NCBI GenBank assembly: GCA_047619315.1
Contig: JBLHKB010000058.1
Coordinates: 1-19,416, forward strand
Origin: Polyangiales bacterium
Lineage (GTDB): Bacteria > Myxococcota_A > Polyangia > Polyangiales > Houyiibacteriaceae
DNA length: 19,416 bases
Reading direction: 5' to 3'
Shown: positions 16,342 through 19,416 of the stretch, one piece after another
Layout of the letters: each line of letters opens with the position of its first letter
How positions within the stretch are numbered: the stretch's first letter is position 1
Position numbers and translations under genes: made by a program
The notes under the pieces: generated by a model
Seen by the model: the letters and a program-made list of their open reading frames with translations, nothing else
Database searches by the model: none
What the model was told of the DNA's origin: nothing

Positions 16342-17427
16342 TCAACCCTTCGGCAAGCGAAGACCGGCCAGACTTCCGGGACCGTCACCAACCACAACGT
16401 GGAGGTCGCCAACACCCGAGAGGATGTCCTTGAGCGCTTCCATCTCCTTGAGACGCATCGCACCTGGGGACTCTTCGAGCACCTTCGCGCTCTGCGCCAG
16501 CGAACGCATCGCCGCCACGTCTTCGCGTCGCAGAATCACCTTCGCCGCCGCTTCCTTCTCCGCCTCGATGACGCGGTTGAGGAGCACCTTCATGTCACCG
16601 GGAAGAACGATGTCCTTCACGCCAAGTCGAATCAGCTTGAGGCCCATGGCCTCTGCGTCGCTCGTCAGCGCCTCGTGCAAATGCGAAGCGAAGTCGCTCC
16701 GACCATCGAGGAGCTCGTCGAGCTTCACGCCCGCCACGTACTCACGCGCGGCAAGCTGCAGTCGCAAGTAGATCGCGTCGCGCACGGACTCCCGCAAGAG
16801 CACGCTGCGCAGCACGTCCTGCACTTCGTACTCCGCCGTGAGCGTCAAACGAAGCGTGACCTTGTCCCGCGTCATCAAGTCCTGGCCCATCACGTTGACG
16901 AGCTGCGTTCGCAGGTCGACCTTGGTGACGGCTACCGGCGCGTGGGCCTGCGTCCAGAACACATGCATGCCTGGCGCAAGCTCGCGGTCCACGCGGCCTG
17001 CCACGAAGAGCACGCCGCGTTCGTATTCCGCGATGACTTGAAACGACACCTCGCTCGCCGGAATGAGCTGCATGAGCTCCTTCGTAGGCTTCGCGAGGGC
17101 CTTTCCCGCGTCGTAGCGCACGAGCTTCATCTCGGCTTCGAGGTTCCATCGGCGGTGAACACCGGGACGTAGGTAGCGCCGCGGCACACCGTCGACGAAG
17201 AGCACTGCGCGCTCATCCTCAGCGACCTCGAACTCCTCGTACCAGTCGCTTGGGATCACCGCGCGCAGCTCCGCCGGCACGTTCATCACAAGCTCGTTGA
17301 GATCCAAACGCACCACCTCGGTCTTGCCGAAGTAGTGATGACGCCCGGGCATCAACGCGGCCGTGGCGACGCCGTTGCGCAAAAGAATGCCTCGTTCGTG
17401 GAATCGGATTTCGTGCGTGCTGAACAT
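16342..17427 (-). CDS. SPFH/Band-7 (stomatin/prohibitin-like) domain protein without a transmembrane anchor
   Basis: SPFH core (VTLRLTLTAEYEVQDVLRSVLLRESVRDAIYLRLQLAAREYVAGVKLDELL...) followed by a coiled-coil stretch (LLNRVIEAEKEAAAKVILRREDVAAMRSLAQ). N-terminus has two related beta-rich segments (FHERGILLRNG...MPGRHHYF and YERGVLFVAGRVDRELAPGMHVFW). No hydrophobic helix. Confidence 0.85.
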   Translation of the reverse strand: MFSTHEIRFHERGILLRNGVATAALMPGRHHYFGKTEVVRLDLNELVMNVPAELRAVIPSDWYEEFEVAEDERAVLFVDGVPRRYLRPGVHRRWNLEAEMKLVRYDAGKALAKPTKELMQLIPASEVSFQVIAEYERGVLFVAGRVDRELAPGMHVFWTQAHAPVAVTKVDLRTQLVNVMGQDLMTRDKVTLRLTLTAEYEVQDVLRSVLLRESVRDAIYLRLQLAAREYVAGVKLDELLDGRSDFASHLHEALTSDAEAMGLKLIRLGVKDIVLPGDMKVLLNRVIEAEKEAAAKVILRREDVAAMRSLAQSAKVLEESPGAMRLKEMEALKDILSGVGDLHVVVGDGPGSLAGLRLPKG

Positions 17428-17743
17428 TGTCTTCTCTCTTTCCTACGGCGCAGTCGCGCCAGGCGGCCTCACCAGTGGCGAGACGCAAAGATGCTGAAAC
17501 TCCGCCCCTCGCCCGCACTTGCGCCGAGCGCAGATGCACAACGAACGAGGAAGAGCGCTGGGTTCATCGTCGGGTCGCCGAGGCGAGGGCCCATCCCTCC
17601 GAAGAAGCTGGACTACCTTGGCCAAGGAGATGCGAGAATGAATGCAGCCGCGCTTGCTGCCATCGCTGGAGCCGCCAAAGTGCGACACCACGAAGGAACG
17701 GAGTTTCTGGATGGCCCCGATGCGGAGGGCCAGACCGTCGTGA

Positions 17744-17820
17744 AATGAAGCCTAATACTCTACCAATGAGTTACCGACCCGAAGGCCGGACGGGAATCGA
17801 ACCCGCTACCGTCAGGTAAT
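17744..17820 (-). tRNA. tRNA-like element with canonical D-arm, T-arm and acceptor pairing but in circularly permuted gene order (3' half, then 2 nt, then 5' half). Possibly a pseudogene or recombination scar.
   Basis: Minus-strand read: CCUGA CGGUA GCGGG-UUCGAUU-CCCGU CCGGCCU U c GGGUCGG UA ACUC-AUUGGUA-GAGU A UUAGG CUUCAUU. T-loop T54-Psi55-C56-R57-A58 with G53:C61. D-loop has A14, G18G19, A21. U8, A26. Acceptor strands pair 7/7 (including G1-U72 and U4-G69). Anticodon-stem halves pair 5/5 (U28-G42). No canonically ordered partner halves within about 300 nt on either side. Confidence 0.4.
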
Positions 17821-18178
17821 GTTCGACCAAAGAGCAGGCATGGTTTCAGGCCATGCTGTGCCACAACGTTTCGAACCCAGTCACCTACCCAATCACGGGG
17901 GCCTGGAACGCTGCTTTCGGTTTGTGAACACAGGACTCACTAGAGCAGGAGACGTGCCAGACGAAAAACAAGCGTTTTCTGCCTATGATGCCCACGAACT
18001 TTATCTGTTTGTATCGTGTTTTATCACGGCACAGATTGCCGAACTCGCCGTGACTGCCAGTGCACCGGTTGGGGTCTACGCACCTTGAAAAGGTCTGGTT
18101 TCGTCTCTCGAACACCCAGAATTGACACGGTGTGGCACAAAAAGGCACTGGCGCAGGGTGTGCAGCTACGACCTACAT

Positions 18179-18865
18179 ATGCGTACTATCTTCCTCTGCC
18201 TGGTGACGCTCATGATCACCACCACCGTCCACGGTCAGGCCCTCCCACCTGCGCCTGCCACGAGAGTCCTGCCGCAGCTTACACCTCTGGAAGAAGAGCC
18301 GGCTTCGGCACGCGCTCTTTTCCATGTAGGCGGCGGCGGCGGATTCCTCACCCGAGAGACCTCGTCATCCGGGTATCAGCAGCTTGAGAGCGCCCGTTAC
18401 AACGCGCCCGACACCTCGTGGCATCTCAACGCCGGGGCTCAGTTCGTCGCCACGGACTGGCTTCGCATCGGTGGAGAGCTCTCCTACGAGTTCGCAGGAG
18501 ACACCACAGAGATGATCATACGAGGGGAGATGGAGGCGCGCTCGACTCGTTTCCACATGGGGATCCTCGACCTCACTCTCACGCCCTACATCCGAGCAGG
18601 CCGTTTGCAGCTGGGACTTCGCTTCGCCGGCGGCTTTGGCTTCTCACGTTGGGTCCATAACTCGCGAGCCTCAGGCGGTGGAGTCTACCGAGCCAGCGCC
18701 GCGTTCGACATCTTCATTCCGCTCTCTCGCCGAAGTTCAAAAGGGCTCAACGTTCGCTTCGGCTATCAGCTCAGGCGCACTCTCCCGACGGGCCCCATCG
18801 ACCTCGTCTTTGACCACTCTTCTGTCTTCTTCAACGTCGCTTTCATGTTTGGAGCCAGCTCATGA
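18179..18865 (+). CDS. Secreted protein, probable outer-membrane beta-barrel
   Basis: Signal peptide (MRTIFLCLVTLMITTTVHG|Q). Alternating hydrophobic beta-strand patterns (LQLGLRFAGGFGFS, SAAFDIFIPL, NVRFGYQL, VFFNVAFMFGA). The ORF track opens at 18122, but the ATG at 18179 gives a proper signal peptide. Confidence 0.6.
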   Translation: MRTIFLCLVTLMITTTVHGQALPPAPATRVLPQLTPLEEEPASARALFHVGGGGGFLTRETSSSGYQQLESARYNAPDTSWHLNAGAQFVATDWLRIGGELSYEFAGDTTEMIIRGEMEARSTRFHMGILDLTLTPYIRAGRLQLGLRFAGGFGFSRWVHNSRASGGGVYRASAAFDIFIPLSRRSSKGLNVRFGYQLRRTLPTGPIDLVFDHSSVFFNVAFMFGASS

Positions 18866-19290: not shown

Positions 19291-19416
19291 CGACGCTTCT
19301 GCATCCACGCCGTGCTCTTCTCGAGCACGGTGTAGAACGCTTCTGGCGCAGCACGCTTCAAACGCCAGAGCGCTTTTCCATCCGCCATGGGCACGGAGTA
19401 GATCCGCCCCTTCGTA
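19287..19416 (-). CDS. 3' end of a minus-strand gene running off the window (...YSVPMADGKALWRLKRAAPEAFYTVLEKSTAWMQKRR*). Product unknown.
   Basis: Open frame from the window edge to a TAG stop (revcomp of 19287-19289). Overlaps the convergent lipoprotein stop by 4 nt. Too short for domain assignment. Confidence 0.3.
   Translation of the reverse strand, partial: TKGRIYSVPMADGKALWRLKRAAPEAFYTVLEKSTAWMQKRR

What the first reader, a model, noticed from the sequence alone, without database searches (positions are those of the whole stretch)
17744..17830. tRNA-like element with every tRNA hallmark but circularly permuted order (3' half - UC - 5' half)
**What the sequence shows.** Read on the minus strand from 17816 down to 17744, the sequence gives these tRNA positions in order:
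- 39-43 CCUGA and variable loop CGGUA
- T-arm GCGGG/UUCGAUU/CCCGU, with T54-Psi55-C56-G57-A58 and G53:C61
- 3' acceptor strand CCGGCCU, then U73
- one C
- 5' acceptor strand GGGUCGG
- U8 A9, D-arm ACUC/AUUGGUA/GAGU (A14, G18G19, A21), A26
- 5' anticodon-stem strand UUAGG, followed by CUUCAUU...

**Why it is notable.** The two acceptor strands pair over 7 of 7 positions. The two anticodon-stem strands pair over 5 of 5. Both pairings cross the junction between the halves. A chance T-arm look-alike would not satisfy both stems. The halves, however, are in the wrong linear order for a normal gene. Within about 300 nt on either side I found no correctly ordered partner. Both putative breakpoints carry CAUU: cuuCAUUucacg in one half and gaaCAUUAccuga in the other.

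**Possible explanations.**
1. A relic of a head-to-tail tRNA duplication, with the outer halves deleted.
2. A scar from a site-specific recombinase that crosses over in the anticodon loop, a favoured integrase target.
3. A genuinely permuted tRNA gene. These are known in red-algal nuclei and a few archaea; to my knowledge none is known in bacteria.

The element sits in a 750-bp gene-free, AT-richer stretch.
Basis: seen in the sequence. Interest (0 to 1): 0.75.

Follow-up and report, generated by a model that had tools for sequence, protein, structure and literature searches.

The report
Permuted tRNA mimic beside slipin gene
The "scrambled tRNA" is real and conserved, but it is a member of a known class of bacterial tRNA-mimicking non-coding RNAs (YrlA-type), here paired with a Band-7/slipin protein of the Rtc RNA-repair family instead of the usual Ro protein.

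Summary
On the minus strand, 17816-17751 encodes a T arm, a UUCG-capped acceptor-like hairpin and a D arm, closed by a helix between the 5' and 3' ends. Eight orthologous loci conserve it: 95% of cells pair, five pairs change on both sides, and 0 of 500 shuffles match.

[quoted passage not shown] Rfam's YrlA model matches only the tRNA-like domain (37-43 bits, below the gathering score of 69).

It is not a canonical Ro-linked YrlA:
- No rsr gene lies within 10 kb in any orthologue.
- The GNCGAA Ro-contact motif is not conserved.

Its constant partner is a 361-aa Band-7/slipin gene about 320 nt downstream on the same strand. A conserved sigma-54-type promoter (TGGCAC-N6-TGC) lies upstream. The same slipin subfamily sits behind tRNA-like RNA in Bacteroidota, Alphaproteobacteria, Bacillota, Enterobacteria, Burkholderia and phage contigs. 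In some of these it lies in RtcR/RtcB/RlaP operons.

This fits the Band-7-associated tRNA-like RNA predicted by Burroughs and Aravind (2016). It is a new member of a known, experimentally unvalidated kind. It is not a permuted tRNA gene, a recombination scar or a pseudogene.

The parts
17751..17816 (-). Permuted tRNA-like (YrlA-type) module: closing helix, variable loop, T arm, capped acceptor-like hairpin, D arm
   Evidence: Sequence read. Rfam YrlA local hit at E = 8.6e-07. Covariation test. Model R1 scores 88.9 bits at exactly these coordinates.
17812..17816 (-). 5' strand of the closing ('anticodon-stem') helix, CCUGA. It pairs with UUAGG at 17751-17755.
   Evidence: Three of the five pairs change on both sides among eight orthologues: CCUGA/UUAGG, UCUAG/CUAGA, UCCGU/AUGGA.
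17790..17806 (-). T arm, GCGGG-UUCGAUU-CCCGU
   Evidence: GGGUUCGA is invariant in all orthologues. Pair 11-27 varies among A-U, G-C and G-U.
17774..17789 (-). Acceptor-like (AS) hairpin, CCGGCC-UUCG-GGUCGG. It is closed by a tetraloop and has no CCA.
   Evidence: Stem kept in 93.8% of cells. Loop is UUCG, CUCG or ACCA; stem is 5-7 bp; L245 has a 12-nt insertion in the loop.
17757..17771 (-). D arm, ACUC-AUUGGUA-GAGU, with the unusual A10:U25 pair
   Evidence: Invariant except in L246, where A10:U25 becomes G10:C25. The A10:U25 pair is shared with slipin-linked modules L122, L123, L149 and L198.
17945..17959 (-). Sigma-54-type promoter, TGGCACGTCTCCTGC (GG-N10-GC). The inferred transcription start is near 17934.
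   Evidence: Only match in the window, with 0.20 expected by chance. TGGCAC-N6-TGC is invariant in all eight orthologues, 156-175 nt upstream of the T loop. Equivalent promoters precede the slipin gene in E. coli, Citrobacter and Burkholderia.
17838..17856 (-). Hairpin GCAUGG-CCUGAAA-CCAUGC, just 5' of the module
   Evidence: Flagged. The loop is invariant in 7 of 8 orthologues and the stem covaries (U-A to C-G, A-U to G-U or G-C). It folds independently in 5 of 8. A similar CUGAAA(A/C)-loop hairpin follows the T arm in L046, L254, L255 and E. coli L258.
17822..17827 (-). GUCGAA, a look-alike of the YrlA GNCGAA Ro-contact motif. Probably fortuitous.
   Evidence: It matches GNCGAA (definition) but lacks the following G. 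In orthologues it reads GUCGAG, GCGGAG, GUCCUG or is absent.
17713..17731 (-). Downstream hairpin GGCCC-UCCGCAUC-GGGGCC. Its 5' arm (CUGGCCC, 17727-17733) is also complementary to the acceptor 5' strand.
   Evidence: Conserved in A1 and A2. It folds in most orthologues. The alternative pairing is used by Rfam's tRNA model in L242.
17428..17750 (-). Conserved non-coding stretch between the module and the slipin start codon (rest of the presumed leader)
   Evidence: High conservation with indels that are not multiples of three. No credible ORF. No Rfam hit apart from one chance-level match at E = 4.1.
16342..17427 (-). Partner gene: 361-aa Band-7/SPFH (slipin) protein of the Rtc-operon-associated subfamily
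   Evidence: Pfam Band_7, E = 7e-28. Orthologues at 62-91% identity always lie downstream of the module. Homologues at 24-36% identity lie behind tRNA-like RNA in other phyla and inside RtcR/RtcB/RlaP operons.
18124..18166 (-). Conserved palindromic repeats (GCACA-N3-TGCGC / TGTGCCA) about 170-200 nt upstream of the promoter. Candidate binding site for an enhancer-binding protein.
   Evidence: Conserved in the five close orthologues. The functional assignment is inference only.

Best explanation
The element is the tRNA-mimicking domain of a non-coding RNA, or of an RNA leader, that works with the Band-7/slipin protein encoded just downstream. Its fold is that of YrlA-type bacterial Y RNAs: a T arm and a D arm form a tRNA elbow, the acceptor stem is closed by a tetraloop, and the anticodon stem is made by the incoming and outgoing strands.

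**Shown here.**
- The fold is maintained by selection.
- It is always on the same strand as this slipin subfamily and a few hundred nucleotides upstream of it.
- A conserved sigma-54-type promoter precedes it.
- The same slipin subfamily elsewhere sits in RtcR-controlled RtcB/RlaP RNA-repair operons, behind tRNA-like RNA.

**Inferred.**
- An enhancer-binding protein (RtcR-like, or another of the many in Myxococcota) fires the sigma-54 promoter under RNA or translation stress.
- The tRNA-like RNA and the slipin mRNA are made as one transcript.
- The stable tRNA-shaped domain is released or persists. It then acts as the RNA cofactor of the Band-7 oligomer, presenting a tRNA elbow to a tRNA-recognising factor. 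This would parallel the way Y RNA serves Ro60 in rsr-yrlBA-rtcBA operons.

In this Kofleriaceae-like lineage the RNA-slipin pair is stand-alone, with no RtcB, RlaP or RtcR nearby.
For: **Fold.**
- 95% of cells pair, five pairs change on both sides, and 0 of 500 shuffles match.
- Rfam YrlA local hits score 38.8, 36.8 and 42.6 bits. They cover model positions 23-88, which is the whole tRNA-like domain.
- Model R1, built only from this family, finds full-length matches in Rsr-linked YrlA loci (up to 68.9 bits) and in slipin-linked loci (34-55 bits).

**Partner gene.**
- The module lies upstream of the slipin gene in 8 of 8 orthologous loci, although the upstream neighbours differ.
- Six further loci found through the RNA pattern have a slipin homologue 240-580 nt downstream on the same strand.
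- Loci chosen by protein alone also have tRNA-like RNA upstream: L254, L255, Burkholderia L260 and Subdoligranulum L261. E. coli L258 and Citrobacter L259 have at least a T arm.

**Rtc link.**
- Citrobacter has an annotated rtcR divergent from slipin plus RlaP.
- Burkholderia has RtcR | slipin | RtcB | RlaP, and Subdoligranulum has slipin | RtcB | RlaP.
- The P. aeruginosa SPFH gene paFlo8 is embedded in the rtc locus (PMC13086221).

**Promoter.**

**Literature.**
- YrlA RNAs are described as circularly permuted tRNA mimics.
- Burroughs and Aravind predicted a Band-7-associated tRNA-like RNA, with YrlA occasionally found next to Band-7. This is as summarised in bioRxiv 10.1101/312249.
- In Anabaena, a slipin, RtcB and a tRNA array share one stress regulon (PMC10272220).
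Against: - There are no expression, processing or binding data. Co-transcription and RNP formation are inferred by analogy.
- No RtcR, RtcB or RlaP lies within 10 kb in any Myxococcota locus. The link to RNA repair therefore rests on homologues at about 35% identity in other phyla.
- The Rfam YrlA score is below the gathering threshold.
- E. coli and Citrobacter slipin leaders are not hit by R1 or by any Rfam model. The RNA partner is therefore heterogeneous across the subfamily.
- The roughly 320 conserved nucleotides between the module and the start codon are not explained by a simple RNA-cofactor model.
- I could not read Burroughs and Aravind (2016) directly. Its content is taken from a citing paper and from memory.
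Confidence: 0.65

Rival explanations
1. It is a canonical Ro-binding Y RNA (YrlA proper) that serves an Rsr protein encoded elsewhere in the genome. Its position next to the slipin gene is incidental.
For: Rfam YrlA is the only RNA family that matches. The window carries GUCGAA and UUAC where YrlA has GNCGAA and YUAY.
Against: - Only model positions 23-88 match, and none of the Ro-binding stem does.
- GUCGAA is not conserved in the orthologues.
- No TROVE gene lies within 10 kb in 8 of 8 loci.
- In the control set, 24 Rsr-linked modules all lie within 1 kb of rsr, and Rsr and slipin never co-occur.
Confidence: 0.07
2. It is mainly a cis-acting regulatory leader. The roughly 500-nt 5' UTR, including the tRNA-shaped domain, controls transcription read-through or translation of the slipin gene. 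A tRNA-binding factor could be sensed by the elbow, or the acceptor 5' strand could re-pair with CUGGCCC. This reading is not exclusive of the best explanation.
For: - The whole stretch from the promoter to the ATG is conserved, with non-triplet indels.
- Mutually exclusive pairings are possible and are kept in 7 of 8 orthologues.
- The distance to the start codon is constrained across phyla, at 240-580 nt.
Against: - GGCC-rich palindromes give such complementarity cheaply.
- No terminator or RBS-sequestering helix could be shown to covary.
- In the related rsr operons the tRNA-like RNAs act in trans.
- Single-sequence folding is no better than for shuffled sequence (z = -0.4 and -0.7).
Confidence: 0.15
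3. It is a non-functional remnant of two tandem tRNA genes whose outer halves decayed.
For: - L242 and L243 keep an anticodon-arm-like hairpin (CUAGA-CUUUUAA-UCUAA) and score as T-arm-less tRNAs.
- Low-GC relatives sit at the ends of tRNA arrays.
- A dimeric-tRNA origin has been proposed for YrlA.
Against: - Compensatory changes maintain all four helices, including the cross-junction helix.
- The T loop and D arm stay invariant across orthologues whose proteins are only 62% identical.
- The parts that tandem tRNA genes would need are the parts that have been lost: the CCA or spacer, and the second T arm.
Confidence: 0.03
4. It is a scar of site-specific recombination in a tRNA gene (option 2), or a true permuted tRNA gene processed into a working tRNA (option 3).
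For: tRNA genes are common integration sites. Permuted tRNA genes exist in red algae and in one archaeon, and the YrlA literature discusses the resemblance.
Against: - There is no integrase or direct repeat.
- The element stays with the slipin gene while the upstream neighbours change.
- The acceptor is capped by 4 nt with no CCA. L245 tolerates a 12-nt loop insertion.
- No anticodon loop can be reconstituted in the window, L244 or L245.
- ARAGORN, which handles permuted tmRNA, finds nothing.
- No parent isotype can be identified.
Confidence: 0.02

Closest known systems
YrlA (Y RNA-like A; Rfam RF02553), the tRNA-mimicking Y RNA of rsr-yrlBA-rtcBA operons
   Same: - Same order of elements: closing helix, variable region, T arm, closed acceptor-like stem-loop, UA, D arm.
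- Conserved T and D stems and loops.
- Variable AS length.
- Transcribed from a sigma-54 promoter in Salmonella (own knowledge, and PMC7790460 abstract).
- Cross-recognition by covariance models in both directions.
   Different: - No Ro-binding stem and no conserved GNCGAA motif.
- No rsr nearby.
- A short 4-5-nt variable loop instead of a V arm.
- An A10:U25 D-stem pair.
- The partner gene is Band-7/slipin.
- Below the Rfam gathering score.
[quoted passage not shown]
   Same: A tRNA-like non-coding RNA encoded next to a Band-7/SPFH protein of RNA-repair systems. The same source notes that YrlA is occasionally found next to Band-7.
   Different: - b7a-tRNA is described as strongly resembling an authentic tRNA in normal order, as seen here in L046, L254, L255 and L260.
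- The window's RNA is the permuted YrlA type.
- RtcB is not adjacent in this lineage.
- The class has not been validated experimentally and has no Rfam family.
Circularly permuted tRNA genes (Cyanidioschyzon merolae and other algae; one archaeon)
   Same: The 3' half precedes the 5' half. The acceptor stem is initially closed, and the anticodon stem is formed by the transcript ends.
   Different: - Those genes are processed through a circular intermediate into real, chargeable tRNAs by a splicing endonuclease that bacteria lack.
- Here there is a 4-nt cap, no CCA and no restorable anticodon loop.
Two-piece tmRNA from permuted ssrA genes (Alphaproteobacteria, some Cyanobacteria)
   Same: A bacterial RNA in which the T arm and 3' acceptor strand are encoded upstream of the 5' acceptor strand.
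   Different: - tmRNA has a CCA end, an excised intervening segment, a tag reading frame and a degenerate D region.
- ARAGORN finds no tmRNA here.
- The Rfam tmRNA hit is only the 15-nt T arm.

Membership tests
YrlA / bacterial Y RNA (RF02553; Chen et al. 2014) | tRNA-like domain: T arm, closed acceptor-like stem-loop and D arm, closed by a helix between the 5' and 3' strands | tested here: met
YrlA / bacterial Y RNA (RF02553; Chen et al. 2014) | Reaches Rfam's curated gathering score (69 bits) | tested here: not met
   No hit at gathering threshold. Local scores are 38.8, 36.8 and 42.6 bits.
YrlA / bacterial Y RNA (RF02553; Chen et al. 2014) | Ro60/Rsr-binding module: conserved GNCGAA(N0-1)G near the 5' end, within a stem formed by the RNA termini | tested here: not met
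   The window has GUCGAA without the trailing G. The motif is not conserved in orthologues. Rfam model positions 1-22 and 89-114 are never aligned.
YrlA / bacterial Y RNA (RF02553; Chen et al. 2014) | Encoded within about 4 kb of rsr (TROVE), on the same strand | tested here: not met
   No TROVE gene in the window or within up to 10 kb in L242-L253. Positive control: 24 loci have Rsr within 1 kb on the same strand.
YrlA / bacterial Y RNA (RF02553; Chen et al. 2014) | Physically bound by Rsr; modified by TruB and DusA | not testable with these tools
   Needs immunoprecipitation and modification mapping.
Band-7-associated tRNA-like RNA (Burroughs and Aravind 2016, as cited) | Encoded next to a Band-7/SPFH protein gene of the RNA-repair-associated subfamily | tested here: met
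   Band_7 gene 317 nt downstream on the same strand. Homologues lie in RtcR/RtcB/RlaP operons. The association recurs in more than 14 independent loci.
Band-7-associated tRNA-like RNA (Burroughs and Aravind 2016, as cited) | RNA folds like a tRNA | tested here: met
   Permuted cloverleaf with covariation. The T loop, G18G19, U8 and A14 equivalents are all present.
Band-7-associated tRNA-like RNA (Burroughs and Aravind 2016, as cited) | Strongly resembles an authentic tRNA (normal order of arms) | tested here: not met
   - The window's element is permuted.
- There is no ARAGORN or Rfam tRNA hit in the window.
- L242 and L243 have an overlapping T-arm-less tRNA hit.
- The source states that YrlA-type RNAs occasionally replace b7a-tRNA next to Band-7.
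Band-7-associated tRNA-like RNA (Burroughs and Aravind 2016, as cited) | Part of an RtcB (RNA ligase) operon | tested here: not met
   No RtcB, RtcA, RlaP or RtcR in the window or in the flanks of the eight orthologues. These genes are present in Burkholderia, Subdoligranulum, Citrobacter and E. coli homologous loci.
RtcR/sigma-54-controlled Rtc operon | Sigma-54 promoter (GG-N10-GC) upstream, with an RtcR activator | tested here: inconclusive
   The promoter motif is present and invariant. No RtcR or other sigma-54 activator gene is seen in the loci held, and whole genomes could not be searched.
Canonical tRNA gene | Acceptor stem with free ends, anticodon arm, arms in the order acceptor-D-anticodon-T | tested here: not met
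   ARAGORN finds 0 genes. No Rfam tRNA hit at E up to 10 in 17300-18300. The acceptor is capped by UUCG.
Processed circularly permuted tRNA gene (algal/archaeal type) | Intervening sequence between the 3' and 5' acceptor ends that can be opened by RNase P/Z, and transcript ends that ligate to give an intact anticodon loop | tested here: not met
   The cap is 4 nt, and a 12-nt insertion is tolerated in L245. Flanks beyond the closing helix are not conserved as an anticodon loop. The processing enzymology cannot be tested here.
Two-piece (permuted) tmRNA | CCA-ending acceptor piece plus a coding piece with a tag ORF | tested here: not met
   ARAGORN tmRNA search is negative. The Rfam tmRNA match is 15 nt of T arm only.

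The most novel reading that the evidence does not exclude
In this Kofleriaceae-like lineage the tRNA mimic and the Band-7 protein have been uncoupled from RtcB, RlaP and RtcR. They form an autonomous sigma-54-driven unit with a roughly 500-nt conserved leader. The leader would act as a structured sensor. The tRNA-shaped domain is read by a tRNA-binding factor or a damage signal, and the acceptor 5' strand re-pairs with CUGGCCC (17727-17733) to set slipin expression. That would make it a tRNA-mimic riboregulator rather than a passive RNP cofactor. In addition, L242 and L243 would be living intermediates showing how YrlA-type RNAs arise from tandem Band-7-associated tRNAs.
Probability: 0.12. Interest if true: 0.7.

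Novelty: new member of a known kind. Interest (0 to 1): 0.38.

Why it matters
**Provenance of the key source.** I could not obtain the primary paper on Band-7-associated tRNA-like RNAs. I know its prediction only through a citing paper and from memory.

**What is missing for this class.**
- According to that citing paper (2018), the class had not been validated experimentally.
- It has no Rfam family.
- Neither ARAGORN nor Rfam at its gathering thresholds reported it in this window.

**What this locus adds.**
- Covariation evidence that such an RNA is under selection.
- Evidence that the same permuted tRNA-mimic module serves two different scaffold proteins, Ro60 and Band-7, which never occurred together in the loci examined.
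- Evidence that the RNA-slipin pair can exist without the RtcB ligase.
- Sequences (L242 and L243) that look intermediate between a tandem tRNA and a YrlA-type mimic.

**Practical uses.**
- The eight-sequence alignment and model could seed an RNA family.
- The pairing gives a concrete hypothesis for a poorly understood SPFH subfamily: it may be an RNA-binding scaffold in the tRNA-damage response rather than a membrane-microdomain protein.

Tried and rejected
- **Large pattern scans.** They returned mostly tandem tRNA genes and no close relative of the window. Orthologues had to be reached through the neighbouring protein instead.
- **L001.** It is 100% identical to the window and so uninformative.
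- **Single-sequence folding.** It is no better than for shuffled sequence (z = -0.38 and -0.69) and does not recover the closing helix.
- **Small ORFs.** Those overlapping 17428-17820 on either strand were considered and rejected. They are Arg-rich, and indels among orthologues break the frame.
- **c-di-GMP-II-GAG hit.** The Rfam match at 17452-17518 (E = 4.1) was treated as chance.
- **Cross-phylum leader alignment.** An alignment of whole slipin leaders is unreliable beyond the T arm, so no leader-wide homology is claimed.
- **Parent isotype.** The in-silico un-permuted tRNA ties between Lys and Gly at about 75% identity in the window and L242. In L246 it ties between Phe, Thr and Arg.
- **Phage collection.** It holds no homologue of the slipin at E <= 1e-15.
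- **Primary literature.** Burroughs and Aravind (2016) could not be retrieved.
- **Integrase scar and functional permuted tRNA.** Both rejected, as set out under the rival explanations.
Full report

Yes. The reverse complement of 17816-17751 reads CCUGA CGGUA GCGGG-UUCGAUU-CCCGU CCGGCC-UUCG-GGUCGG UA ACUC-AUUGGUA-GAGU A UUAGG.

The only refinement concerns the junction.

ARAGORN finds no tRNA or tmRNA anywhere in the window. Rfam at gathering thresholds finds nothing.

**2. Is it more than chance?**

The window appears to be a metagenomic contig, and a second sample holds an identical copy (L001). I therefore reached orthologues through the downstream protein.

- Four loci have that protein at 86-91% identity (L242-L245).
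- Three further lineages have it at 62-64% identity (L246/L247, L248-L252, L253).
- All contain the element at the same position.

On a module-only alignment (A4), the permuted cloverleaf has these properties:

| Measure | Observed | Control |
|---|---|---|
| Cells forming standard pairs | 95% | 28-47% with 3' partners slid by 1-3 columns |
| Pairs changed on both sides | 5 | 0-1 in slid controls |
| Shuffles reaching the observed values | 0 of 500 | n/a |

It reads CCUGA/UUAGG in the window, UCUAG/CUAGA in L248 and UCCGU/AUGGA in L246. In L246 the D stem switches from A10:U25 to G10:C25.

The capping hairpin varies in loop (UUCG, CUCG, ACCA) and in length. L245 carries a 12-nt insertion in the loop. 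That is the behaviour expected of a closed stem whose tip does not matter.

The CAUU shared by the two "breakpoints" is not conserved.

**3. What kind of RNA is it?**

In E-value mode, Rfam's YrlA model (RF02553, "Y RNA-like") is the only meaningful match.

| Source | Bits | E-value |
|---|---|---|
| Window | 38.8 | 8.6e-07 |
| L242 | 36.8 | 2e-06 |
| L246 | 42.6 | 3.9e-08 |

In L242 and L246 the alignment covers model positions 23-88. That span is the closing helix, T arm, AS stem-loop and D arm.

Chen et al. (2014) defined YrlA by these elements plus two more: a 5' GNCGAA(N0-1)G motif thought to contact Rsr/Ro60, and a location within 4 kb of rsr. Wang et al. (2018) solved the structure. [quoted passage not shown]

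**4. It is not a canonical Ro-linked YrlA.**

- The scores are well below Rfam's gathering score of 69.
- The Ro-binding part of the model (positions 1-22 and 89-114) never aligns.
- The window's GUCGAA reads GUCGAG, GCGGAG, GUCCUG or nothing in the orthologues.
- No TROVE gene occurs in the window or in up to 10 kb either side in the orthologous loci.

As a positive control, I sorted the 248 pattern hits from the two collection scans.

- Fifty hits, in 45 loci, overlap no predicted tRNA.
- Clustering their neighbouring ORFs and naming them with Pfam recovered Ro60 (TROVE plus vWA_Ro60), RtcB and RtcA.
- Rsr is present in 24 of the 45 loci, always on the same strand and within 1 kb of the module.

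**5. The real partner is a Band-7/slipin protein.**

The same clustering produced an unexpected family, an SPFH protein, in five loci. None of those five has Rsr.

A tblastn search with the window's 361-aa Band_7 protein found homologues at 24-34% identity, 240-580 nt downstream of the module on the same strand. They are in L049 (Aquimarina), L046 (Paralimibaculum), L122, L123, L149 and L198. Four of these share the window's unusual A10:U25 D stem.

I then went protein-first so that the sample would not be chosen on the RNA.

- Two evaluable viral or prophage contigs (L254, L255) have a tRNA-like element about 480 nt upstream of the slipin gene.
- In the plasmid collection the subfamily occurs in only 11 records.
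- Among them, Citrobacter freundii has an annotated rtcR divergent from slipin plus a nucleotidyltransferase.
- Burkholderia has RtcR | slipin | RtcB | RlaP. Subdoligranulum has slipin | RtcB | RlaP. E. coli STEC639 has slipin | RlaP. These were confirmed with Pfam.
- In each case, T-arm-containing tRNA-like RNA lies between a promoter and the slipin gene.
- A model built solely from the eight Myxococcota modules finds full-length matches both in Rsr-linked YrlA loci (up to 68.9 bits) and in slipin-linked loci (34-55 bits).

**6. Promoter.**

TGGCACGTCTCCTGC (17959-17945, minus strand) is the only TGGCAC-N6-TGC in the window, where 0.20 are expected by chance. It is invariant in all eight orthologues, 156-175 nt upstream of the T loop.

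E. coli, Citrobacter and Burkholderia have equivalent GG-N10-GC promoters ahead of their slipin genes. This matches the sigma-54/RtcR control known for rtc operons.

The roughly 500 nt from the promoter to the slipin ATG (17427) are conserved with non-triplet indels and have no credible ORF. The module therefore probably lies in a long leader, or in a co-transcribed non-coding RNA.

**7. Relation to what is known.**

Wang et al. summarise Burroughs and Aravind (2016) as follows. [quoted passage not shown] The b7a-tRNA had not been validated experimentally.

Two other papers bear on this.

- A 2026 paper notes that a P. aeruginosa SPFH gene is embedded in the rtc locus.
- In Anabaena a slipin, RtcB and a tRNA-array operon belong to one translational-stress regulon.

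The window's element therefore fits the "YrlA next to Band-7" case. What differs here:

- The RNA-slipin pair is stand-alone in this Myxococcota lineage. Named relatives of the protein are Kofleriaceae.
- The variable region is short.
- A long conserved leader surrounds the module.

Rfam has no family for the E. coli slipin leader. NCBIfam has no specific model for the protein.

**8. Origin.**

In L242 and L243, the D arm is followed by CUAGA-CUUUUAA-UCUAA, which is an anticodon arm. Rfam's tRNA model scores 36.7 and 34.6 bits there by pairing the acceptor 5' strand with a downstream CUGGCCC. That makes a T-arm-less second tRNA.

It does not describe the present state of the element. No parent isotype can be named.

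**9. Mechanism.**

*Shown:*
- a selected tRNA-shaped fold;
- a fixed partnership with, and orientation towards, the slipin gene;
- a sigma-54-type promoter;
- membership of the slipin in a subfamily found in Rtc operons.

*Inferred:*
- stress-activated sigma-54 transcription yields one transcript;
- the tRNA-like domain persists and serves as the RNA cofactor of a Band-7 oligomer, analogous to Y RNA with Ro60;
- it presents a tRNA elbow to an unknown tRNA-recognising factor.

A cis-regulatory role for the leader is a live, non-exclusive alternative.

**10. Verdict.**

The element is real and conserved. It is a new member of a known but experimentally unvalidated class. It is not a bacterial permuted tRNA gene.

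Noticed in passing
window 17945-17959 (-): A conserved sigma-54-type promoter, TGGCACGTCTCCTGC. It is the only such match in the window and is invariant in all eight orthologues.
   Followed up: yes
window 18124-18166 (-): Conserved palindromic repeats (GCACA-N3-TGCGC, TGTGCCA) about 170-200 nt upstream of the sigma-54 promoter in the five close orthologues. They may be an enhancer-binding-protein site.
   Followed up: no
window 17838-17856 (-); also L046, L254, L255, L258: A hairpin with an invariant CCUGAAA loop and a covarying stem lies just 5' of the module. In other phyla, a similar CUGAAA(A/C)-loop hairpin directly follows the T arm of slipin-linked tRNA-like RNAs. In the window it is preceded by a degenerate GGGUUCGAAA, which may be a relic of a first tRNA-like unit.
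   Followed up: partly
window 17428-17750 (-): About 320 nt between the module and the slipin start codon are as conserved as the module, with frame-breaking indels. L242 carries a triplicated CAGCUUCUUCGGAA insert there. The function is unknown.
   Followed up: partly
window 17727-17733 vs 17774-17780 (-): CUGGCCC downstream of the module is complementary to the acceptor 5' strand GGGUCGG. It is also the 5' arm of the next hairpin (17713-17731). The complementarity is kept in 7 of 8 orthologues. It could be a structural switch, or a by-product of GGCC-rich palindromes.
   Followed up: partly
L242 9597-9656; L243 6647-6703: Rfam's tRNA model passes its gathering score on a T-arm-less tRNA (acceptor, D arm, Lys-like CUUUUAA anticodon arm) that overlaps the permuted module. 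This looks like an evolutionary intermediate between tandem tRNAs and a YrlA-type mimic.
   Followed up: partly
L049 263-416; L122 1194-1325; L123 1024-1154; also L041, L068, L157, L168, L230: Permuted T-AS-D modules often occur as two or more tandem copies. This holds in both Rsr-linked and slipin-linked loci.
   Followed up: no
L049 ~470-520; L122, L123, L149, L198 (3' of the tRNA-like units): Low-GC slipin leaders share a pseudoknot-like motif, AGAAG-[X]-CUUCU(C)UAAAAA-[X'], in which X and X' covary. The motif is absent from the window family.
   Followed up: no
window 16342-17427 (-), residues 1-160: The slipin has no obvious N-terminal membrane segment. It carries three repeats of an ER(G/A)(I/V)L...G...L.PG.H..W motif, and the third repeat opens the SPFH domain. 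The N-terminal region is conserved across phyla (alignment A5).
   Followed up: no
L254 4417-5022: In one viral contig, the gene after the slipin encodes an Nmad2 (nucleotide modification associated domain 2) protein instead of RtcB or RlaP.
   Followed up: no
L023, L027, L015, L055, L082 and seven other loci: Twelve loci with clear permuted modules show no Rsr, slipin or RtcB in the 8 kb held. Further partner proteins may exist, or the genes may lie beyond the fetched stretch.
   Followed up: no
window 19291-19416 (-): The C-terminal end of a minus-strand gene runs off the right edge of the window. It was not identified, so an Rtc-related gene immediately beyond the window cannot be excluded for this contig. 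The orthologous loci show none there.
   Followed up: no
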